A stretch of DNA of 64,000 nt, taken from positions 4,236 to 68,235 of the IMG/VR virus record IMGVR_UViG_3300021256_000099. One strand, written 5' to 3'. Both the position numbers and the translations under genes were made by a program. Every line of letters begins with the position of its first letter. Positions within the stretch are counted from its first letter, which is position 1. Source of the DNA: a virus (Duplodnaviria; Caudoviricetes). The notes under the pieces are model-generated. The model had not been told where the DNA came from, ran no database searches, and worked only from the letters and a program-made list of their open reading frames with translations. Positions 19,634 to 47,895 of the stretch are shown piece after piece.

Positions 19634-19912
19634 ATGGGAAGATGGAGAAAATTTACGAACAGGTCAATGCCAGAGCCATATGAGCCTGTGCTTTGTCTTG
19701 GCAAGAACGGAAGTCCTTTTGTGGGATTTATGCCTCTGAATTCATATGTCGAAAACAACCATGTGTTTATGAACCTTAATGGCATACAGAACGGAAAAAT
19801 GGCTTTTATGTGGCAGAGGATCACATATCCAGATTGGGACGAGTTTGAAAAACTTACAGGCAAAAAAGTGTTGCCGAAATATAGGAATCAGAAATGGGGG
19901 TACGAAGATTGA
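19634..19912 (+). CDS. Hypothetical protein
   Basis: ORF track; GAAGGA RBS. Confidence 0.55.
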   Translation: MGRWRKFTNRSMPEPYEPVLCLGKNGSPFVGFMPLNSYVENNHVFMNLNGIQNGKMAFMWQRITYPDWDEFEKLTGKKVLPKYRNQKWGYED

Positions 19913-20568
19913 TTAAGTATGATAAGATCCCTGTCCCTTTTGTAAGGGATAGCAATAAGAAGATGACAGACCAGTGGTCATCCCCGGAACTCTACAACCT
20001 GAGATATATCGACTGGATAATGCTTGAAAAGATAGACGGCACAAATATCGGTGTTCACTGGACAGGTTACGATGTCGAGTTTCAAGGCAGGACTGAAAGA
20101 GCGGACATTCCGAAACATCTGTTACAGAGTCTTAACGAGACTTTCCGGGGAGACGCTGCGGAAGAGATTTTTGAACAGGCATTCGGCGATAAGGAAGTGA
20201 TCCTGTTTGGCGAAGGATATGGAAACAAAATCCAGAAGAACGGCGATAAGTACATGGCAGATGAATGTGGCTTCATCCTGTTTGATGTCTACTTCCCCCA
20301 GACAGACATCTGGTTATGCCTTGACGATGCATGGGACGTTGCTGACAAGTTCGGGATTCCTTCAGTACCTGTTGTACATGTCGGAAATTTGCAATTAGCG
20401 ATAAGCCTTATCAAGAAGAGACCTATGTCGATCATCAATCCAGAGCATGAGATGGAAGGCTTTGTCTGCCGTCCTGCTGTCGAACTGAGAGACAGAATGG
20501 GCAAGAGGATCGCTTGCAAAATCAAAGTCAAAGATTTTTGCGAAGGAGTACCCGGAAAGCAATACTAA
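19894..20568 (+). CDS. RNA ligase (Rnl2-like nucleotidyltransferase)
   Basis: Motif I EKIDGTN, FGEGYG, FILFDV, EGFV, KIK. Confidence 0.8.
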   Translation: MGVRRLIKYDKIPVPFVRDSNKKMTDQWSSPELYNLRYIDWIMLEKIDGTNIGVHWTGYDVEFQGRTERADIPKHLLQSLNETFRGDAAEEIFEQAFGDKEVILFGEGYGNKIQKNGDKYMADECGFILFDVYFPQTDIWLCLDDAWDVADKFGIPSVPVVHVGNLQLAISLIKKRPMSIINPEHEMEGFVCRPAVELRDRMGKRIACKIKVKDFCEGVPGKQY

Positions 20569-20788: not shown

Positions 20789-21433
20789 ATGAAAGTCCTT
20801 GAGTTATTTGCCGGGACAAGAAGTATTAGTAAAGCCTTCGAGAGAAGAGGACATGAGGTCTATACCGTAGATTGGGACAAAGACTTCGAAAACATAGACC
20901 TTTGTAAAGATATTAGTAAACTTACAGCGCAGGAGATATTAGAGAATTTTGGACACCCGGATGTGATTTGGGCAAGTCCAGACTGCTCATCTTACTCCGT
21001 GGCCGCAATCTATCATCATAGGAGAAGAGACAAGACAAACGGGTCACTCGAACCAATAACCGAATATGCGAGGTTTTGTGATGAGACGAATCAGCATGTC
21101 TTAGAGCTAATAAAAGAACTCAATCCGAAGTTCTATTTCATAGAAAACCCAAGGGGGGGTCTGAGAAAAATGTGGTGGATGCAGGATTTGCCGAGATACA
21201 CAGTGACGTACTGTAAATATGGCGAGACCCGTATGAAACCCACGGACATTTGGACGAATCACCCAGACCCTAAGTTTATTCCGCCTTGCAAGAATGGAGA
21301 TCCGTGCCACGAGAAAGCACCAAGGGGAACAAAGTGTGGAACTCAGAAGATTAAAGGCTCAAAGAACAGGGCGAAAATCCCAGTTCTTCTGTGTGAACAT
21401 ATTGTAGATATTTGTGAGGAATATATAGATTGA
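20789..21433 (+). CDS. Short phage C5 cytosine DNA methyltransferase
   Basis: Motif I LELFAG, motif IV WASPDC, motif VI FIENP, KPTDIW. Confidence 0.85.
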   Translation: MKVLELFAGTRSISKAFERRGHEVYTVDWDKDFENIDLCKDISKLTAQEILENFGHPDVIWASPDCSSYSVAAIYHHRRRDKTNGSLEPITEYARFCDETNQHVLELIKELNPKFYFIENPRGGLRKMWWMQDLPRYTVTYCKYGETRMKPTDIWTNHPDPKFIPPCKNGDPCHEKAPRGTKCGTQKIKGSKNRAKIPVLLCEHIVDICEEYID

Positions 21434-21730: not shown

Positions 21731-22565
21731 CTTTTATAGATTTTTTTGCCGGGATATAGGGGGTTTCCGTCTTGGCATGGAAAGAGCGGGGCATGAGTGT
21801 GTCGGGTTCTGTGAATTCGACAAGTACGCCGTCATGGCTTATACAGCTATGCACTTGTGTACAAAGGAACAGATTGATTATTTATCAAGTCTCCCACCCA
21901 GAAAACGGCAGAAGGAAATTTTAAAGGAAGAGTATCGAAATGGAGAGTGGTTCAGAGAAGATGTCAGGAATATCAGGGCAGACGAAATCCCAAGAGCAGA
22001 CTGTTGGTGCTTTGGATTCCCGTGTCAAAACATCAGTGTTGCCAGAGCAGAGAGCAGACAAGGACTTAGCGGAGAAAAATCAATCCTCTTCTATGAAATC
22101 ATCAGATTGCTCAAGGACACAAAAAAAGACGATAGACCCAGTTATTTGCTCATTGAGAACGTTAAGGGATTGCTTGGTGTCAACCGGGGATGGGATTTTG
22201 CCAGAGTCCTCAGTGAACTGGATGGAGTCGGGTATGATGCGGAATGGCAGATTCTTGACTCAAAATATTTCGTCCCACAACACCGGGAAAGAATCTTCAT
22301 TGTTGGACATCTTAGAGGAAGACACACCTCAAAGGTATTACCTATCGAAGGAGCAAATGGAAAAGATTGCGCTAACCAAATAAAACAAGTAGGCCATCTA
22401 GCAGTGTCTCTTCGCCATAATCCTGACAGGTACAGAGTTTATGATCCGACAGGTATTTGCCCTACTCTCAACAAAATGGAAGGTGGCGGGAGAGAACCAC
22501 ACATAGTCGTGGGGGTGGCTGCTCTTCGTGGTAAGGGAAAGATTGGAAGTGACAGCGATGAATGA
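21718..22565 (+). pseudogene. C5 cytosine methyltransferase, motifs I-VIII, with a 2-bp frameshift in motif I
   Basis: MGRLTFIDFFAGI then TAG; removing TA at 21757-21758 restores FAGIGGFRLGMERAG into ORF 21777 (FGFPCQ, ENVKG, QHRERIF). Confidence 0.75.
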
Positions 22566-36224: not shown

Positions 36225-36253
36225 ATTTTACTACTTCCAGACACATTTGTCAA
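36225..36253 (-). promoter_or_regulatory. sigmaA-type early promoter
   Basis: TTGACA-17 nt-TAAAAT on the minus strand. Confidence 0.8.
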
Positions 36254-36294
36254 CACAAAATGTATGGTAATACAGGTCTGGTTTGGAAATTCTT

Positions 36295-36366
36295 GCTGTC
36301 AGGATGCTTCGGATGTTCCTGATGCCGTTTTACATCCCCTGTCCGGGGATGCCGTCAACCGTCAGC
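36295..36366 (-). ncRNA. Twister ribozyme, type P5 (copy A)
   Basis: GA-CGG / P1 hairpin / UAA / P2 / GC / P4 loop AUCCGAAGC; T1 CGG:CCG, T2 GC:GC. Confidence 0.85.
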
Positions 36367-36649
36367 CAAACCGCTTTTTGTAGTCAAGAAACATTTTTCG
36401 CATCTGCTTTGTGTGGATGTCGGTAATTTTCTCGACCTGAGCCATGTAAGCGATGATGTCCATATCTCCGTACTCATATACGACTCTGATGTCCTCTGAC
36501 ATCGTCCTGAAGTTATCCGCCATCCTGTTACTCCATCCGTACAGGCTGATCTTTCCACTCAGTAGCTGCCTGTAGGCTCTGCCGGAATCTTCCTGATAGT
36601 CTGCGATGATGGTTTTGATTTTTTTCTCAGTTAGCTTGGTAGTAAACAT
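36362..36649 (-). CDS. Hypothetical early protein
   Basis: GGAG RBS; stop codon lies in ribozyme stem P5. Confidence 0.65.
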   Translation of the reverse strand: MFTTKLTEKKIKTIIADYQEDSGRAYRQLLSGKISLYGWSNRMADNFRTMSEDIRVVYEYGDMDIIAYMAQVEKITDIHTKQMRKMFLDYKKRFG

Positions 36650-36671
36650 CTTAAATCTCCTCTCTGTAGTT

Positions 36672-36908
36672 TCAAAATTCTTCTTCTGTGAAGAATTCAG
36701 AAAAGATTTCGTCCAGTACAGGTCTTACTGCCTTCCTGCGAATCGCCGTCTCTTCTGGTGTATCACCGTCCATGTAATCGCCATCCATGATTGACTCGTA
36801 GACAGCCTCCTTAAACTCATCTGTCGTATCATAGTCAGCCGGGGAAATGTAGTAATCCACATTATCGCCCATGAATTCCAAGATGCGGTCTCTGATTGCC
36901 TCGTACAT
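36672..36908 (-). CDS. Acidic hypothetical early protein
   Basis: AAAGGAG RBS. Confidence 0.65.
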   Translation of the reverse strand: MYEAIRDRILEFMGDNVDYYISPADYDTTDEFKEAVYESIMDGDYMDGDTPEETAIRRKAVRPVLDEIFSEFFTEEEF

Positions 36909-36956
36909 GCTCGTCTCCTTTCAAAATTTTTACCTCTGGTTTCGGAATTCTTACTT

Positions 36957-37028
36957 ACCGCCTGTTACTTTGGATACACAGGGTGTAGCTTTACATCCCC
37001 ACATCAGGGGATGCCATCAGCTTTCGGT
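36957..37028 (-). ncRNA. Twister ribozyme, type P5 (copy B)
   Basis: GA-UGG / CAUCCCC..GGGGAUG / UAA / AGCU / AC / loop AUCCAAAGU. Confidence 0.85.
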
Positions 37029-37249
37029 TAGGCCAGTTTTGCGATGATTTCGTCAATCTGGCGTTTATCCATGTCGGCTTTTGCAACATCATACCAGTCG
37101 TTGAGCTGCATGATGTCCTCTGTCGCAACACATCCATCATGCCCAAACAGAGCCTCAAACCTTCTGCGGTATTCCTGATTTAAGTCCTGCTTTTCTCTTT
37201 CGTGCTTTTCACGGATCTTCCTCATCCTTTCAATCCTTGTCGTATCCAT
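37028..37249 (-). CDS. Hypothetical early protein
   Basis: AAAGGAG RBS. Confidence 0.65.
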   Translation of the reverse strand: MDTTRIERMRKIREKHEREKQDLNQEYRRRFEALFGHDGCVATEDIMQLNDWYDVAKADMDKRQIDEIIAKLA

Positions 37250-37262
37250 CCTGATTCTCCTT

Positions 37263-37538
37263 TCAAAAAATTTCCTTGCGTTCTTCGTCCATCAGGAACC
37301 TGTAGCAATCGTCAATGCTGTTGGGCATGGCCGTGTAAAAGTCTACACGAGTCTCATACTTGTCTTCGAGCCGGGTAATTGCCTCTTCAGAGACCTCTTT
37401 CATCGTCTCTGGGTAGATGTCGATTTGAAACTCTGTGACACGCAGACGGAGCCTGTTATCTCCGATGTAGCGGGTGTATCGCCAGATAGTGAATGCTTCC
37501 CCTTTGTAGTTGCCGAACGCTTCTCTTTCCATTTCCAT
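37263..37538 (-). CDS. Hypothetical early protein
   Basis: AAAGGAG RBS. Confidence 0.65.
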   Translation of the reverse strand: MEMEREAFGNYKGEAFTIWRYTRYIGDNRLRLRVTEFQIDIYPETMKEVSEEAITRLEDKYETRVDFYTAMPNSIDDCYRFLMDEERKEIF

Positions 37539-37560
37539 GGTCTTTTTCTCCTTTCTGTTT

Positions 37561-37631
37561 GGTTGCCCGGTGCTTTGGATGTCCGGGGTGCAACTTTACA
37601 GCCCTGGACGGGCTGCCATCAGTTTTCAACC
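37561..37631 (-). ncRNA. Twister ribozyme, type P5 (copy C)
   Basis: GA-UGG / CAGCCC..GGGCUG / UAA / AGUU:AACU P2 / GC / loop AUCCAAAGC. Confidence 0.85.
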
Positions 37632-37872
37632 GTGTAGACGGCTTTGACACCGTTGTCGTGAGTAATCACAATCGTCTGGGTCCCGTCATAGTTCGGAATC
37701 CTCTTGATGCTCCTGATATAGGTGCATCTGTTAATCTTCTTATCGATGAGGCATTTAGCCAAATCTTTGTAGATGTATTCAGCATCTGTTGTACGAAAAG
37801 GGACTGCCCATTTTCCATCCTGCGTCTTTACCATTGTGTACATTTCAAGTTCCCGATTTACTGTAAGATTCA
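37619..37872 (-). CDS. Conserved gut-phage hypothetical protein
   Basis: Probable start MNLTVNRE after AAAGGAG; stop is the UGA in the ribozyme core. Confidence 0.65.
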
Positions 37873-37908
37873 TTTCGGATCTCCTTTCGTTTGGATATTT
37901 TTGATTGA

Positions 37909-37977
37909 GCTGCCCGCTACTTTGGATGCACGGGAGTAGCTTTACGTGGGATTGCTCCCACGCCATCAGCTTTCAGC
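37909..37977 (-). ncRNA. Twister ribozyme, type P5 (copy D)
   Basis: GA-UGG / CGUGGG..CCCACG / UAA / AGCU / AC / loop AUCCAAAGU. Confidence 0.85.
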
Positions 37978-38499
37978 ATCTCTTGCCCGGTCGATGAGAC
38001 CTTGGACTAAGTGGAATACCATGCTTCCTTGTGTCCGATTGGTGTACTCCTCAAACTCGTGGGAGAGGATGTATTCCTCTTTAAATCCAAGTACGAATTC
38101 CCCTTCGAAAAATCTTTCAAGGATGTTGCTACGCCTTATGACATCAGCTACGCATTCGCGAGTAATCAGGCAGAAGAAGTCTTCTGTGAAACCGTTCGGA
38201 TCTAACGCATCGAACTCGTAGGGGAGTTTCAGTTTTCTTACGGCACTGGTAAAGGGAAGCAAATCGTGAGCGTTCGACATCATGAATCGGTCGCAATCAT
38301 TCGTGTCGAACTCGTAGCAATAAGCGTACCCGGTGTTGAGCCAGTTGCGGAAGTTCTCCTGCATATCGACCTCTACACCGTTAAGGAACTCCTCTTTGTT
38401 CCTGAATGTGAGTCCCATATCTCTTGCATTGGTGAAAGATTCGTGGATTCCTTCGATAAAGAGTTCTTCGAAGATGCCATAGTGATTAAAGTTTTTCAT
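37966..38499 (-). CDS. Acidic hypothetical early protein
   Basis: GAGGAG RBS; stop is the UGA in the ribozyme core. Confidence 0.65.
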   Translation of the reverse strand: MKNFNHYGIFEELFIEGIHESFTNARDMGLTFRNKEEFLNGVEVDMQENFRNWLNTGYAYCYEFDTNDCDRFMMSNAHDLLPFTSAVRKLKLPYEFDALDPNGFTEDFFCLITRECVADVIRRSNILERFFEGEFVLGFKEEYILSHEFEEYTNRTQGSMVFHLVQGLIDRARDAES

Positions 38500-38529
38500 G
38501 TTTTTTCTCCTCTCATTTTGGAATTTTTA

Positions 38530-38601
38530 AGCTGCCTACCACTTTGAATGCGTAGGGCGTTGCTTTACATCCCCTGACGGGGATGTCATCAGCTATCAGC
38601 C
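38530..38601 (-). ncRNA. Twister ribozyme, type P5 (copy E)
   Basis: GA-UGA pairs with loop AUUCAAAGU (compensatory T1 change); P1 CAUCCCC..GGGGAUG. Confidence 0.85.
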
Positions 38602-38603
38602 TG

Positions 38604-39104
38604 TTACATCGTGACATCACCAGTGACGATGTTGTAGATGAGGCCTGTCTCGCCCAGAAATGTTGTGTCGAGCTTTCCATAGTGGATGTCTACGTCATAG
38701 AGTGCGACCCATCCTAACCTGTCGTCGTCATCGTAGTCGTTGTACGCCTCGGAAAGAGTGCCGTCATCTACACAGAGGCATTTACGATGGCAGTTGGCGA
38801 TTTTGTCGCTGTAGGGAACGAAATCCTCTGTATCCTCATCTGTGCACTCTGCCTCGATAAAGACGTATTCCTCTATTTTTCTGTGGCCGAAAGCTTTTTC
38901 GTACCGCTCGTCCCCGACATCAACGGAGAAACCGCCGAACTTTTTACGGAGTTCAGCAACGACTGCCGGAAAAACGACGTTTTCGATGTGCTCGTAAGCC
39001 TCAAACATTGCGTCGTCAAAGTCGATTCCCTTTTCACTGGCATAGTCGATGATGTCATCAACCTTGTACATAACCTTCTTAATATCCATTTCTTTTCTCC
39101 TCAT
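38604..39104 (-). CDS. Acidic hypothetical protein, first gene of the early operon
   Basis: Probable start MDIKKV after GAGGAG. Confidence 0.65.
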   Translation of the reverse strand: MRRKEMDIKKVMYKVDDIIDYASEKGIDFDDAMFEAYEHIENVVFPAVVAELRKKFGGFSVDVGDERYEKAFGHRKIEEYVFIEAECTDEDTEDFVPYSDKIANCHRKCLCVDDGTLSEAYNDYDDDDRLGWVALYDVDIHYGKLDTTFLGETGLIYNIVTGDVTM

Positions 39105-39193: not shown

Positions 39194-39222
39194 ATTCTAC
39201 TACTACGTGATACATTTTGCAA
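39194..39222 (-). promoter_or_regulatory. sigmaA-type promoter of the early operon
   Basis: TTGCAA-17 nt-TAGAAT; spacer AATGT...GTAG shared with the promoter at 36225. Confidence 0.7.
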
Positions 39223-39828
39223 TACTTTTTGCATCCGTAATTGTAAAATGTTTATTAAATTGAGTACAAGTCTGGCTTGAAAATTTTTGCGTATATGGGT
39301 CTGGTTTCGGAATTTTTACATGCCTCTGGTTTCGGAATTTTTGCGTATACATATAACCCCCGGCGGATCTCCTCTGGTGTCGAGCTGCTACCCTATCCAT
39401 GTATGGTTTGATGGGTGGGAGAGGATAGGATAGCCATATTTCTCCGTATTAGCCTTGTATAGGCGTTTTTACAACTTTATAGTATATGGTATCACCCAAC
39501 AATAAGTCTTGCGTATGGGCATTTTAAGCGATTTTTTAGCAAAACAGAGTACATGTATAAACGCTGTCGCTTCCCTTCCAAACATCGGTAAACGTTTCTC
39601 ACGGCAAAGTTTAGTTGCGTACGGTAGCACTTTACTCATGGGAGTTTCTTCTTATTGTAAGGTTTCCCGGCTCAAATGGTAGCGGGTAGCGTTGCCGATA
39701 TCGCCACCGCTTTTTGCCCTGTCTGCATCACCTCTATATATAAGCCTCTTTTGCGTGTACACACGCCCCCACCTATAAGCCTCTTTTACGCATGTACGTG
39801 TACGGACACCAGAGCGGATCTATCCGCC

Positions 39829-39918
39829 CTGCCGGGTCTGCCGGGTCTGCCGGGTCTGCCGGGTCTGCCGGGTCTGCCGGGTCTGCCGGGTCTGCCGGGT
39901 CTGCCGGGTCTGCCGGGT
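39829..39918. repeat. Perfect tandem repeat, 10 x CTGCCGGGT
   Basis: Read directly from the sequence. Confidence 0.95.
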
Positions 39919-40943
39919 CCCGGGGACACATTGTACCGTTTACGTCCAGTGTGCATGTTATATAACAGATAGAACAACTGGCTCAAAAATAAGATCAGCC
40001 AAAACTGTTATACGTGGTATATAACACGCATATCAAGGCCTGGACCTAAAGTTAATTGTTTCAATTGTGCATAAAATATATACAATAGGCACAATAATAA
40101 CAGGACGCAAATTAATCAAATTGTGTATAAAAAATATACAACTCAAACAATTCTTGAATGTGGCCGCCGCCGCCAAATTGTCAGACAATAAACAAAATAA
40201 ACAGAAAATTAGCACTTCACATTTTAGAGTGCTAATTTACAGAAAATAATGTGAATTGTCAGATAAATTGTTTCGTGCTCTAACGCAATACAAATTAACA
40301 GACAATACGGATAATTATCAGATAATAGGAAACGGATCTATTTTTATAGTTTGTTGTGTCTAACATATGTGGGACAAAATTAGTACATTTCTACCGCCAG
40401 GGAATTTGTTCGAATTATCAGAAAACTATACACAATTTATACGGATCGCATTTTTGTTTAAAAGTATGTCATACTGCCGATTTTTATGCATTTTAACCCT
40501 GTCTTTTTGCATAAAAACTGTATAAAACATGAAAACATGTATAAAACATGTATAAAGTGCCGAAAAGAAGACGGAAAAATGAATAATCTGACAATATAGC
40601 GAATTGTATAGCTCCAACAGAAATCAAGGCTTTTATGACATGGGCGGGGGGATATACCACAAACGCAAAAAGTCGCTTAAATCGCCAAATAAACGATTTT
40701 ATGGATATATCGAAAAGATGATATAAAATAATCAAAATACGGTACATTATAATTGTACAAATAGGAACGAATACTATATTATGGCTGCCGATACAAAAAA
40801 AGATATAAAATGAATCTAGCAATATTTGGCTATACAATGTACTAATATAGTGATACAATAGTATTAGATACATATATAAGTTTTGTATCTGTTAGGTGAT
40901 ACTAACGGATGCGATACAATTTTATGGAAAGGTGGATTATAAA

Positions 40944-46151: not shown

Positions 46152-46254
46152 TCCTTGGTGGTTTAATTGGAAAAACGTTAATGTGTCATACCTACGAATG
46201 ACACTGACAGCACCCTACACGGAAGAGTTACAGGTTCGAGTCCTGTCCAAGGAT
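46152..46254 (+). ncRNA. tRNA-like RNA with the anticodon arm replaced by a long hairpin and insert
   Basis: Acceptor TCCTTGG/CCAAGGA, D arm GTTT..AAAC, T arm ACAGG-TTCGAGT-CCTGT; no 7-nt anticodon loop. Confidence 0.65.
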
Positions 46255-46257
46255 CTG

Positions 46258-46413
46258 GGACACCCACAGCAACACATACACAAAACATAGAACAAGTTAG
46301 AACCTTAAAAAGCCGAACGTCCTTTCCAGACTCAGCTATTTGGTGTCCTGTTTTCGTTTATGTGACTCTAACAGCAAATACTTGGTAGACAGCTTATTAC
46401 TAAACGAGTCATG
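46258..46413 (+). ncRNA. Two tandem stem-ACAGCAA-loop-stem-TG elements
   Basis: GGACAC-CCACAGCAA...GTGTCC-TG (46258-46350) and GACTC-TAACAGCAA...GAGTC-ATG (46364-46413). Confidence 0.55.
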
Positions 46414-46428
46414 AGAAAGAAGGTGTTA

Positions 46429-47895
46429 ATGAACTTTGCGACAGCACTGGACGAAGCGTCCAAGGTTACTCGCACGGAAAACGGTGCGTTAGCCTACAAC
46501 ACAACTGATGATGCTTTATTAGACCTCTACTCCACAATAGGAGCATTGAGGAGCGCAGATGATGCGAGAATCGAGCGTCTGTTTGACTGCGCTTACAAAG
46601 CTGATCCGCTTTTTGCCACAAAGATTGTTTTCTACGGAAGAGACATCCGTGGTGGCCTTGGAGAGAGAAAGACCTTTAGAGTTCTCCTTAAGTACATGGC
46701 GGACAACCATCCTTCGGCAATCAAGCCAAACATGCACCTCGTCCCGGAATACGGCAGATGGGATGATATGTACTCCTTTATCGGGACTCCGCTTGAGGAC
46801 GATATGTGGAGACTGATGAACGAGCAGCTTGAGAAGGACTGTTTTGCTCTTGCTGATGGAAAGAACGTTTCCCTTCTGGCAAAGTGGATAAAGACCCCGG
46901 ATGCCTCTTCAAAAGAGACCAGAAGGCTCGGCATCCTTACTGCCAAAAAACTCGGTTACACTGTGTATCACTTCAAACGGATCATCCGTGCGCTTAGAAG
47001 GCAAATCAATGTAACAGAGTCGCTGATGTCGGCCAAGAAGTGGAATGAGATAAAGTACGAGGAAGTACCGTCAAGGGCATCCACACTCTACAGAAATGCT
47101 TTTTCGAGGCATGACGGAGACAGATACCGGGAATTTGCCACTAAAGCGGTAAATGGCGAGGCGAAAATCAATTCGTCAACCCTTTACCCCTATGACATCA
47201 TTCAGCGGTACACTTCTTATGGTTGGGGTCTGCAGGTAAAACCATTGGACTACATACTTGAGGCACAGTGGGAGCAACTTCCTGACTATGTCGAAAAAGG
47301 CTCTAATGCCATTGTGATCGCTGATACATCAGGGTCTATGCACGGAAGACCAATCAACTCAGCAATAGGTCTTGCTATCTACTTTGCTGAGAGAAATACC
47401 GGGGCATACCACAACCTCTGGATGTCTTTCTCCAGAACGTCTACAATCCACAAACTAAAAGGGGATACCCTTCGGCAGAAAATCAACTCTATTGACTTTT
47501 CTGACTGGGAGAACGATACGAACATTGAAGCTGCCTTTGATGGAATCCTCGATATTGCCATCAAGAATAACGTTCCTGCTGACGAGATGCCCAAAGCACT
47601 GGTCATCATATCTGACATGGAATTCAACCAGTGTACATACGGTTTCATGTACGACAGCATGGCAAAGAAGTTTGCAGCACATGGATACGAACTGCCAAAT
47701 GTTGTCTTCTGGAATGTTGACTCCCGGAATGATACCTACCATGTCCGTTCTGGGCAGAAGGGTGTACAGTTAGTCTCTGGATCATCAACTTCAGCCTTTA
47801 AGAACCTTATGGACTGCGTAGACATGACCCCAGTAGAAGCAATGGTGAAAACCATTAACTGCGACAGGTATCTGCCGATAACCATTGAGGAATAG
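46429..47895 (+). CDS. DUF2828-family protein (TROVE/Ro60-like plus vWA domain)
   Basis: RTENGA, LLDLY, FYGRDIRGGLGER, VPEYGRWDD, LLAKW, YEEVPSRA; vWA MIDAS-like DTSGSM, ISDMEF, FWNV, VSG. Confidence 0.85.
   Translation: MNFATALDEASKVTRTENGALAYNTTDDALLDLYSTIGALRSADDARIERLFDCAYKADPLFATKIVFYGRDIRGGLGERKTFRVLLKYMADNHPSAIKPNMHLVPEYGRWDDMYSFIGTPLEDDMWRLMNEQLEKDCFALADGKNVSLLAKWIKTPDASSKETRRLGILTAKKLGYTVYHFKRIIRALRRQINVTESLMSAKKWNEIKYEEVPSRASTLYRNAFSRHDGDRYREFATKAVNGEAKINSSTLYPYDIIQRYTSYGWGLQVKPLDYILEAQWEQLPDYVEKGSNAIVIADTSGSMHGRPINSAIGLAIYFAERNTGAYHNLWMSFSRTSTIHKLKGDTLRQKINSIDFSDWENDTNIEAAFDGILDIAIKNNVPADEMPKALVIISDMEFNQCTYGFMYDSMAKKFAAHGYELPNVVFWNVDSRNDTYHVRSGQKGVQLVSGSSTSAFKNLMDCVDMTPVEAMVKTINCDRYLPITIEE

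What the first reader, a model, noticed from the sequence alone, without database searches (positions are those of the whole stretch)
36295..38601. Five type-P5 twister ribozymes cut the early operon into one- to two-gene pieces
Five minus-strand elements (36295-36366, 36957-37028, 37561-37631, 37909-37977, 38530-38601) sit at gene ends in the early operon. Seen directly, they share the order P5 - P2' - GA-NNN - P1 hairpin - UAA - P2 - T2 - P4 with loop AUYCRAAGY - P5'. Base pairs covary: T1 is UGG:CCA, UGA:UCA or CGG:CCG; T2 is AC:GU or GC:GC; P1, P2, P4 and P5 differ in sequence but keep pairing. That matches the published twister core. Predicted U^A cuts fall between 36332/36331, 36993/36992, 37598/37597, 37944/37943 and 38567/38566. 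Twisters in gut phage DNA are known, but their purpose is not. Inference: the phage uses self-cleavage as a host-independent mRNA processing system that sets stoichiometry or decay of uncharacterised host-takeover genes. The resulting 5'-OH ends could stabilise or destabilise the pieces.
Basis: partly seen in the sequence, partly recalled or inferred. Interest (0 to 1): 0.92.

Follow-up and report, generated by a model that had tools for sequence, protein, structure and literature searches.

The report
Five variant twister ribozymes between phage genes
Five copies of a slightly unusual form of a known self-cutting RNA (the type-P5 twister ribozyme) sit between small unknown genes of a temperate gut phage and probably chop one long message into one- and two-gene pieces with hairpin-capped ends; this arrangement has been known in phages since 2011, and its purpose is still untested.

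Summary
Five minus-strand elements lie at the stated coordinates, and each has the type-P5 twister order: P5, P2', GA, T1', P1 hairpin, U^AA, P2, T2, P4 loop, P5'. All six helices, including both pseudoknots, keep pairing through compensatory changes. Pairing is 96.6% of cells in the five copies and 98% in 42 distinct copies from other phage and MAG contigs, against 31-44% in slid controls.

Rfam's Twister-P5 model misses them at its threshold. With lax filters it scores e2 at 24.6 bits and e1 at 15.9 bits, against a cut-off of 37.6, and gives nothing for e3-e5. They are therefore a divergent subtype. The departures from the consensus are compensated changes in P2, T1 and T2, plus a conserved 12-nt L4 loop in place of the usual 8 nt.

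In other phages the subtype lies in series, on the same strand, with threshold-passing Twister-P5 and Pistol ribozymes. It also forms arrays of up to six copies.

The layout is regular. The upstream stop codon lies in or beside the element's 5' edge, 24-40 nt before the cut in the window (29-61 nt in most other copies), and the next start codon lies about 60 nt after the cut.

No RNA data exist, so cleavage and function are inferred. The processing idea dates from 2011, and "early" and "host-takeover" are unsupported. This scan has already noted many twister arrays on other DNA.

The parts
38530..38601 (-). e5: variant type-P5 twister; predicted cut between U38567 and A38566; T1 is UGA:UCA
   Evidence: (93.3 bits with R1). 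Rfam gave no twister hit even with lax filters.
37909..37977 (-). e4: variant type-P5 twister; predicted cut between U37944 and A37943. The stop codon of ORF177 (UGA, 37968-37966) is the last U of P2' plus the core GA.
   Evidence: (84 bits).
37561..37631 (-). e3: variant type-P5 twister; predicted cut between U37598 and A37597. The stop codon of ORF84 (UGA, 37621-37619) is the last U of P2' plus the core GA. T2 is GC:GC.
   Evidence: (88.6 bits).
36957..37028 (-). e2: variant type-P5 twister; predicted cut between U36993 and A36992. The stop codon of ORF73 (UAA, 37030-37028) touches P5.
   Evidence: the only Rfam family hit is RF02684, 24.6 bits, E 9.6e-4, full model.
36295..36366 (-). e1: variant type-P5 twister, last of the series; predicted cut between U36332 and A36331. 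T1 is CGG:CCG and T2 is GC:GC. The stop codon of ORF95 (UGA, 36364-36362) lies in P5 and the junction.
   Evidence: RF02684, 15.9 bits, the only hit. In bovine-gut relatives a P4 pair changes from A-U to G-C (36317 with 36304).
38604..39104 (-). ORF166, first gene of the ribozyme-bearing unit; no family match
37966..38499 (-). ORF177, between e5 and e4; its start lies 67 nt after the e5 cut and has a strong RBS; no family match
37619..37873 (-). ORF84, between e4 and e3; its start lies 70 nt after the e4 cut; no family match
37028..37538 (-). ORF91 (37263-37538) and ORF73 (37028-37249), the two-gene piece between e3 and e2; no family match
36362..36908 (-). ORF78 (36672-36908) and ORF95 (36362-36649), the two-gene piece between e2 and e1; no family match
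39194..39222 (-). Promoter-like site (TTGCAA, 17-nt spacer, TAGAAT) about 85 nt upstream of ORF166; candidate start of the unit. This is a consensus match only.
36225..36253 (-). Promoter-like site (TTGACA, 17-nt spacer, TAAAAT; 11 of 12) about 40 nt after e1. No minus-strand terminator-like site lies anywhere between 39.2 and 36.3 kb, so e1 may form the 3' end of the unit.

Best explanation
The five elements are self-cleaving RNAs of the twister class in the type-P5 permutation. They belong to a divergent subtype that is widespread in gut phages. The subtype differs from the curated consensus by compensated base-pair swaps in P2, T1 and T2 and by a conserved 12-nt L4 loop closed by an A-A mismatch.

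The proposed sequence of events is as follows. A roughly 2.9-kb message is probably transcribed from a promoter-like site near 39.2 kb, with no terminator before e1. As the message is made, each element folds. The core G of the GA motif activates the 2'-OH of the U that follows P1, and the chain breaks between that U and the conserved A. This would give pieces of about 620, 623, 346, 605 and 661 nt carrying one or two genes each.

Because of the P5 permutation, every upstream piece keeps its complete ORF and stop codon. It ends flush in the stable P1 hairpin (-13 to -15 kcal/mol) with a 2',3'-cyclic phosphate. Every downstream piece starts with a 5'-OH, AAA and the P4 hairpin, then an RBS and a start codon about 60 nt on. 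The likely effect is to uncouple the stability and translation of neighbouring cistrons and to give each a standard, hairpin-capped 3' end and 5' leader. e1 would act as the 3'-end former of the unit.

Shown: the fold, the conservation, the geometry and the company of canonical ribozymes. Inferred: transcription as one unit, the cleavage itself, and the effect on expression.
For: Fold:
- MAFFT plus RNAalifold recover P5, P2, P1 and P4.
- With T1 and T2 added, 96.6% of cells pair in the five copies, 96.1% in 14 distinct sequences and 98.0% in 42 distinct sequences. In one search, 23 of 24 pairs show double changes, and slid controls give 31-40%.
- T1 and T2 were never part of the covariance models, yet they pair in 99% of cells.

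Core:
- GA, UAA, the C of T2, the U before T1 and the AAG after T1 are invariant in all 42 sequences.
- Rfam aligns e2 to the full Twister-P5 model, with GA, the P1 hairpin and UAA in register, and it is the only family that hits. The same holds for e1.
- The catalytic roles of that G and A are established for the O. sativa twister (G45 and A7; PMC6154101).

Company:
- In related loci the subtype lies on the same strand a few hundred bases to a few kb (0.3-4.6 kb) from threshold-passing Twister-P5 (L040, L031, L034) and Pistol (L029, L050, L035, L031) ribozymes.
- Arrays of 3-6 same-strand copies occur in other records.

Geometry:
- In the five window copies and in the 20 of 23 other copies that have an upstream ORF of at least 50 codons, the stop codon lies upstream of the cut. 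The next start codon, with an RBS, clusters 53-71 nt after the cut in the other copies and lies 59-84 nt after it for e2-e5.

Natural variation: relatives show a compensatory A-U to G-C change in P4 of e1, and their other listed changes that I mapped in e2 and e4 fall in a loop or the linker.

Precedent:
- Clustered hammerheads flank genes in prophages and cleave in vitro and in vivo (PMC3088659).
- The engineered pRAP system uses a twister between cistrons and needed a stem-loop just upstream of the cut for the released cistrons to be expressed (PMC9872166).
Against: - No copy reaches the Rfam Twister-P5 gathering score (37.6 bits). Three of the five get no twister hit even with lax filters.
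- The enlarged L4 loop and the loss of the Watson-Crick pair that closes it are untested for activity.
- Promoters and the absence of terminators rest on consensus scans only.
- The biological pay-off is unknown. In Bacillus the 5'-OH product of the glmS ribozyme is destabilised rather than protected (cited in PMC6765202), so the direction of any effect on the downstream piece is open.
Confidence: 0.75

Rival explanations
1. The elements are twister-derived structured RNAs that no longer cleave. They act only as intercistronic structure: 3' or 5' stabilising hairpins, translational insulators or protein-binding sites.
For: The Rfam scores are sub-threshold or absent. The L4 loop is 12 nt rather than 8 nt and is closed by a conserved A-A mismatch instead of a Watson-Crick pair. 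Many computationally predicted ribozymes fail to cleave when tested (PMC8782182).
Against: Every catalytic and near-invariant core position is kept in all 42 copies, which a mere hairpin function would not require. Both pseudoknots are kept through compensatory change. The subtype takes the same intercistronic places as canonical Twister-P5 and Pistol ribozymes in related phages.
Confidence: 0.1
2. Cleavage is gated by translation. The upstream stop codon lies in or beside the 5' edge of the ribozyme (in e3 and e4 it contains the catalytic G). A terminating ribosome would therefore unfold P5, P2' and T1', and processing would report how heavily the upstream gene is translated.
For: The stop codon lies 1-16 nt before the core G in all five window copies and no more than 31 nt before it in 18 of 20 other copies. 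In L028 the stop again contains the core G.
Against: The overlap may only reflect compact phage spacers, since the 5' part of the element offers UAA and UGA triplets. The distance varies from -1 to -84 nt. Twisters fold and cut fast (PMC6154101), probably before the first ribosome arrives. No data bear on it directly.
Confidence: 0.12
3. The main selected role is at the DNA level. The roughly 80-bp conserved repeats would act as recombination joints that let phages swap small gene cassettes, and the RNA activity would be secondary.
For: In bovine-gut relatives, similarity to this stretch breaks off at or near element borders (loose ends at 36362-36371, 36954 and 38514). The flanking genes have no homologs in any other ribozyme-bearing locus, while the element itself is shared.
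Against: Helices differ in sequence yet keep pairing on one strand only, which points to selection on the RNA rather than on DNA identity. Copies within an array are too divergent in P1, P4 and P5 for efficient homologous exchange. Mosaic breakpoints at gene borders are usual in phages anyway.
Confidence: 0.05

Closest known systems
Type-P5 twister self-cleaving ribozyme (Rfam RF02684; class of Roth et al. 2014 as reviewed in PMC5408937 and PMC6154101)
   Same: The order of parts is the same: P2', GA, T1', P1 hairpin, U^AA, P2, T2, P4 with a loop carrying T1, AA and T2, with the ends in P5. Both pseudoknots are present. GA, UAA and the loop AAG are invariant. It is the only Rfam family to match. 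Canonical copies occur beside the subtype in other phages.
   Different: The scores of 24.6, 15.9 and no hit fall below the 37.6-bit cut-off. P2 has U-A where the consensus has A-U, T1 has U-A (or C-G in e1) where the consensus has G-C, and T2 mostly has A-U where the consensus has G-C. Each swap is compensated on the partner strand. L4 is a conserved 12-nt loop (A-N-A-U-T1-AA-GY-A) closed by an A-A mismatch, not the 8-nt loop closed by a Watson-Crick pair.
Clustered hammerhead ribozymes flanking genes in prophages (Perreault et al. 2011, PMC3088659)
   Same: Several same-strand self-cleaving ribozymes bracket single genes or short gene blocks of varying identity in phage DNA. The same idea was proposed: long phage transcripts are processed into gene-length mRNAs.
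   Different: The ribozyme class is different. Those clusters were shown to cleave in vitro and in vivo, whereas these are untested. Here the type-P5 topology leaves a hairpin on both new ends.
Pistol ribozymes near phage genes (Rfam RF02679; PMC4604425, PMC6154101)
   Same: They occupy equivalent intercistronic positions on the same strand as the subtype in related phage contigs (L029, L031, L035, L050).
   Different: The fold is unrelated, and none occurs in this window.
pRAP, an engineered twister-assisted polycistronic expression system (PMC9872166)
   Same: A twister placed between cistrons converts one transcript into separate mRNAs, each with the same leader. A stem-loop just 5' of the cut was needed for the released cistrons to be expressed, and here P1 sits exactly in that place.
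   Different: pRAP is synthetic, uses a twister that cuts at its own 5' end plus an added hairpin, and was tested in E. coli with T7 polymerase.

Membership tests
Twister ribozyme class (definition as in PMC5408937) | [quoted passage not shown] | tested here: met
   RNAalifold and single-sequence folds recover them. They pair in 97-100% of cells and show compensatory changes in 42 sequences.
Twister ribozyme class (definition as in PMC5408937) | Two pseudoknots: T1 (L4 with the strand between GA and P1) and T2 (L4 with the strand after P2) | tested here: met
   T1 pairs in 100% and T2 in 100% of cells in the five copies, and in 99.2% and 98.8% in 42 sequences. Double changes occur (UGG:CCA, CGG:CCG, UGA:UCA, UAG:CUA; AC:GU and GC:GC). 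Neither pseudoknot was part of the models that made the alignments.
Twister ribozyme class (definition as in PMC5408937) | About ten strongly conserved nucleotides in L1 and L4, with the scissile bond 5' of a highly conserved A next to P1 | tested here: met
   Ten positions are invariant in all 42 sequences: GA, UAA, the C of T2, the U before T1 and the AAG after it. They align to upper-case positions of the Rfam consensus.
Twister ribozyme class (definition as in PMC5408937) | Site-specific self-cleavage giving 2',3'-cyclic phosphate and 5'-OH ends | not testable with these tools
   No RNA run holds the stretch. This needs a bench assay.
Type-P5 permutation of twister | Ends located in P5, with P1 closed by a loop | tested here: met
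   P5 is the outer helix (4-5 bp, 95% of cells paired in 42 sequences) and P1 is a hairpin.
Rfam RF02684 Twister-P5 (curated family) | Covariance-model score at or above the gathering cut-off of 37.6 bits | tested here: not met
   There were no hits at gathering. With lax filters e2 scored 24.6 bits, e1 scored 15.9 bits, and e3, e4 and e5 gave nothing. None of about 20 subtype copies in other loci passed, although three canonical copies beside them did.
Rfam RF02684 Twister-P5 (curated family) | An 8-nt L4 loop (U, T1, AA, T2) closed directly by P4 | tested here: not met
   L4 is 12 nt, with conserved extra A residues and an A-A closing mismatch in 35 of 42 sequences.
Ribozyme clusters flanking phage genes (PMC3088659; PMC10085705) | Several same-strand self-cleaving ribozymes between genes in phage or prophage DNA, near other ribozymes | tested here: met
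   Five copies lie in 2.3 kb between seven ORFs. The phage context is shown by an integrase, a terminase and a portal protein. Related loci mix the subtype with Twister-P5 and Pistol ribozymes.
Hammerhead ribozyme (considered because of the CUGAUG string) | CUGAUGA and GAAA core boxes around three stems | tested here: not met
   The string reads CUGAUGG and is followed by UAAA after the hairpin. No hammerhead model matched, even with lax filters.

The most novel reading that the evidence does not exclude
The arrays may do more than cut. Each excised piece carries the 3' half of one twister at its 5' end and the 5' half of the next twister at its 3' end. For the e5-to-e4 piece these halves are fully cross-compatible in P5, P2 and T1, and for e4-to-e3 and e2-to-e1 there is one mismatch each. 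The ends could therefore re-assemble into a hybrid twister that holds the 5'-OH and the cyclic phosphate together. Re-ligation, by the ribozyme itself or by a ligase, would then give circular single-gene mRNAs. The phage does encode a protein with an RNA_ligase domain. The evidence does not exclude this, but nothing found here favours it. The compatibility follows from sequence similarity alone. The e3-to-e2 piece is incompatible in P5. No RtcB or end-healing enzyme was found. Perreault et al. looked for such products from hammerhead clusters and saw none (PMC3088659).
Probability: 0.05. Interest if true: 0.85.

Novelty: new variant of a known kind. Interest (0 to 1): 0.42.

Why it matters
What self-cleaving ribozymes do in bacteria and phages has been an open question since 2011-2014. 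This locus adds a compact and regular case: seven genes, five cuts, and fixed distances from stop codon to cut to start codon. It also shows that the curated Twister-P5 model overlooks a whole subtype found in 30-odd phage and MAG contigs. Surveys based on Rfam thresholds therefore under-count phage twisters, because pseudoknot partners that covary are scored as mismatches. The type-P5 layout suggests a concrete and testable rationale, namely that both new ends are hairpin-capped, and this matches what engineers found necessary in pRAP. The gain is incremental. The class, the clustering and the processing idea are all published, and the phage is uncultured.

Tried and rejected
- Rfam at gathering threshold over the whole window found only three tRNA-type hits.
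- Rfam at E <= 10 over 3.4 kb and over 441 nt found no ribozyme.
- The genome search with RF02684 on the phage's own record found nothing.
- Rfam on the rest of the minus-strand block, 38.6-41.5 kb, found nothing credible.
- blastn of 4 kb against deposited phage genomes gave no match.
- No RNA holder was listed for the stretch. The same-sample metatranscriptome contigs laid nothing on it. This says nothing about expression either way.
- PHROG and Pfam searches on the seven cassette proteins and their neighbours gave no family.
- tblastn of those proteins against all fetched ribozyme-bearing loci gave no hits.
- RtcB (PF01139) and 2H/LigT (PF13563) are absent from the record, which is only about 70% complete.
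- The three key papers (Roth 2014, Weinberg 2015, Felletti 2017) are not held in the library, so I used reviews that summarise them.
- Rejected reading, hammerhead: the core boxes are absent.
- Rejected reading, intrinsic terminators: no U-tract follows P1 and the scan found none on this strand.
- Rejected reading, plain DNA repeats: the helices covary on one strand only.
- A possible extra L4 pair (alignment A6 columns 81 and 91) is not supported. It reads U-A in 20 sequences but A-A or C-A in 18.
Full report
**1. The observation**

The window is bases 4236-68235 of a 68-kb IMG/VR phage record estimated to be about 70% complete. The five minus-strand elements are real repeats at the stated coordinates.
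- A core pattern finds exactly five matches against 0.01 expected by chance.
- A covariance model built from them finds exactly five hits of 77-93 bits in the window and in the whole record. The next best hit scores 11 bits.
- RNAalifold on a plain MAFFT alignment returns an outer stem (P5), a short stem (P2) and two hairpins (P1, P4), with 16 of 23 pairs showing double changes.
- Each copy folds the same way alone, with z from -2.1 to -3.8.
None of 500 shuffles reached this, and slid controls gave 31-44%.

**2. What the elements are**

The order of parts is P5, AAA, P2', GA, T1', P1 hairpin, U^AA, P2, T2, one or two linker bases, P4 with a loop carrying T1, AA and T2, then P5'. This is the type-P5 circular permutation of the twister ribozyme as the class is defined: three essential stems, two pseudoknots, about ten conserved nucleotides, and a scissile bond 5' of a conserved A next to P1 (PMC5408937).

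Rfam gives a mixed answer.
- Nothing passes the gathering threshold, and nothing scores at E <= 10 over 3.4 kb.
- With lax filters on single elements, Twister-P5 is the only family that hits e2 (24.6 bits, E 9.6e-4, full model, with GA, P1 and UAA in register) and e1 (15.9 bits).
- e5, e3 and e4 get no twister hit. The cut-off is 37.6 bits.

The reason can be read from the alignment and from canonical copies in other phages.
- Where the consensus has A-U in P2, G-C in T1 and G-C in T2, these copies have U-A, U-A (or C-G in e1) and mostly A-U. The partner changes each time.
- Pseudoknot partners are scored by the model as unpaired conserved bases, so each compensated swap is penalised twice.
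- The L4 loop is 12 nt (A-N-A-U-T1-AA-GY-A), closed by an A-A mismatch that is conserved in 35 of 42 sequences. The canonical loop is 8 nt and is closed by a Watson-Crick pair.

The G of GA and the A after the cut correspond to the general base and general acid of the O. sativa twister (G45 and A7; PMC6154101). That positional mapping rests on the Rfam alignment and on my recollection of the O. sativa sequence.

**3. The subtype beyond this window**

Two pattern scans of viral contigs and one scan of prokaryote genomes, followed by model searches, gave 37 further distinct copies from 30-odd phage or MAG contigs.
- On all 42 distinct sequences, 98.0% of cells pair and 23 of 24 pairs show double changes. 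T1 pairs in 99.2% and T2 in 98.8% of cells. New variants appear (T1 UAG:CUA; P2 GGU:ACC and C-G). Slid controls give 31-40%.
- One caveat: the patterns fixed parts of the core, so core conservation is partly by construction. However, the secondary copies were found by the model alone, and the pseudoknots were never in the model.
- None of these relatives passes Rfam's threshold either. On the same strand, 0.3-4.6 kb away, Rfam does find threshold-passing Twister-P5 (L040, L031, L034) and Pistol (L029, L050 twice, L035, L031) ribozymes.
- Sharing positions with other self-cleaving classes is the published hallmark of bacterial and phage ribozymes (PMC10085705).
- Arrays recur: three copies in two phage records, three in a Clostridia MAG, and six within 3.8 kb in a yak-cecum MAG. 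All four MAG hosts are gut organisms, and none is cultured.

**4. Context and geometry**

- The phage has a tyrosine integrase (31.4-32.6 kb, plus strand) and a replication and nucleotide-metabolism module upstream on the plus strand. An 8-kb minus-strand block of small ORFs follows, and then a plus-strand packaging module with terminase and portal.
- The ribozyme-bearing unit appears to be bounded by promoter-like sites at 39222-39194 and 36253-36225. It contains no minus-strand terminator-like site.
- It holds seven ORFs of 73-177 aa with strong RBSs and no Pfam or PHROG match. They have no homologs in other ribozyme-bearing loci.
- In all five copies the upstream stop codon lies in or beside the element's 5' edge, 24-40 nt before the cut. 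In e3 and e4 the UGA stop is the last U of P2' plus the core GA.
- For e2-e5 the next start codon lies 59-84 nt after the cut.
- Among the 23 independent copies, 20 have an upstream ORF of at least 50 codons. In all 20 the stop is upstream of the cut, and in 18 of them it is no more than 31 nt before the core G. The cut-to-start distance clusters at 53-71 nt.
- Each predicted upstream piece therefore keeps a complete ORF and ends flush in P1 (-13 to -15 kcal/mol). Each downstream piece begins with AAA and a hairpin (-6 to -10 kcal/mol).

**5. Mechanism**

Shown: the fold, the conserved core, the regular placement and the company of canonical ribozymes.

Inferred: the unit is transcribed as one RNA; each element cuts itself at U^A; and the result is one- or two-gene mRNAs with hairpin-capped 3' ends and uniform leaders, with e1 forming the 3' end of the unit just before the next promoter.

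The engineered pRAP system supports this logic. Twisters between cistrons give separate mRNAs in E. coli, and the released cistrons were expressed only after a stem-loop was placed just upstream of the cut (PMC9872166). Whether the 5'-OH end protects or exposes the downstream piece is open (PMC6765202).

Variation in bovine-gut relatives fits RNA-level constraint. A P4 pair of e1 changes from A-U to G-C through two linked substitutions, and the other listed changes that I mapped in e2 and e4 fall in a loop or the linker.

**6. Comparison and novelty**

Clusters of same-strand hammerheads flanking genes in prophages were described in 2011, shown to cleave, and interpreted in the same way (PMC3088659). 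Twisters share those contexts (PMC10085705), and polycistronic processing has been suggested for them too (PMC6765202). P5 is present in only about 1% of annotated twisters (PMC6154101).

What is new here is modest:
- a coherent subtype that the curated model rejects;
- its defined differences from the consensus;
- the regular spacing of stop codon, cut and start codon;
- the point that the P5 permutation caps both new ends with hairpins.

This scan has already noted many twister arrays in phage operons on other DNA, some much larger than this one.

**7. Limits**

There is no RNA evidence of any kind. Promoters and terminators come from consensus scans only. The original twister papers were not available to read. 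"Early" and "host-takeover" remain labels without evidence.

Noticed in passing
window 36277-36289, 36935-36947, 39300-39312, 39325-39337 (minus strand): The motif TTCCGAAACCAGA occurs four times (one copy with a mismatch) against 0.78 expected by chance. Two copies lie just 3' of e1 and e2, and two lie upstream of the promoter-like site at 39222-39194. It could be an operator or a duplication scar.
   Followed up: partly
window 39829-39919: A perfect 9-nt tandem repeat (CTGCCGGGT, 10.1 copies) lies in the apparently non-coding stretch upstream of the ribozyme-bearing unit.
   Followed up: no
window 36362-36371, 36954, 37869-37891, 38514: Contigs from two bovine-gut metagenomes are about 90-95% identical in patches. 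Their similarity to the window stops at or near ribozyme borders, as if the gene cassettes between ribozymes had been exchanged among related phages.
   Followed up: partly
window 19894-20568 (+): A 224-aa protein with an RNA_ligase domain (PF09414, 64.5 bits) lies in the replication module. No RtcB or 2H phosphoesterase was found in the record. Any link to ribozyme-made ends is unknown.
   Followed up: partly
window 46152-46254 and 46411-47895 (+): A tRNA-like RNA with a 43-nt insert in place of the anticodon arm (Rfam tRNA, 41.2 bits) lies directly upstream of a DUF2828/DUF7788/vWA protein.
   Followed up: no
window 20789-21433 and 21777-22565 (+): Two neighbouring ORFs both match parts of the C-5 cytosine DNA methylase family (PF00145). 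This may be a split or interrupted gene, or two methylases.
   Followed up: no
L029 9706-10968; L031 3100-5541; L050 4259-7454; L040 5598-6041; L034 3292-3917: Other phage contigs carry mixed same-strand series of Pistol, canonical Twister-P5 and the variant subtype, 0.3-2 kb apart.
   Followed up: partly
L060 4495-6910 (G006:C45:132495-136286): A yak-cecum MAG contig labelled Paludibacteraceae carries six same-strand copies in 3.8 kb. The copies are of two or more flavours that differ in T1 and P2 (UGG:CCA or UAG:CUA with GCU:AGC; UGA:UCA with GGU:ACC or a close variant).
   Followed up: partly
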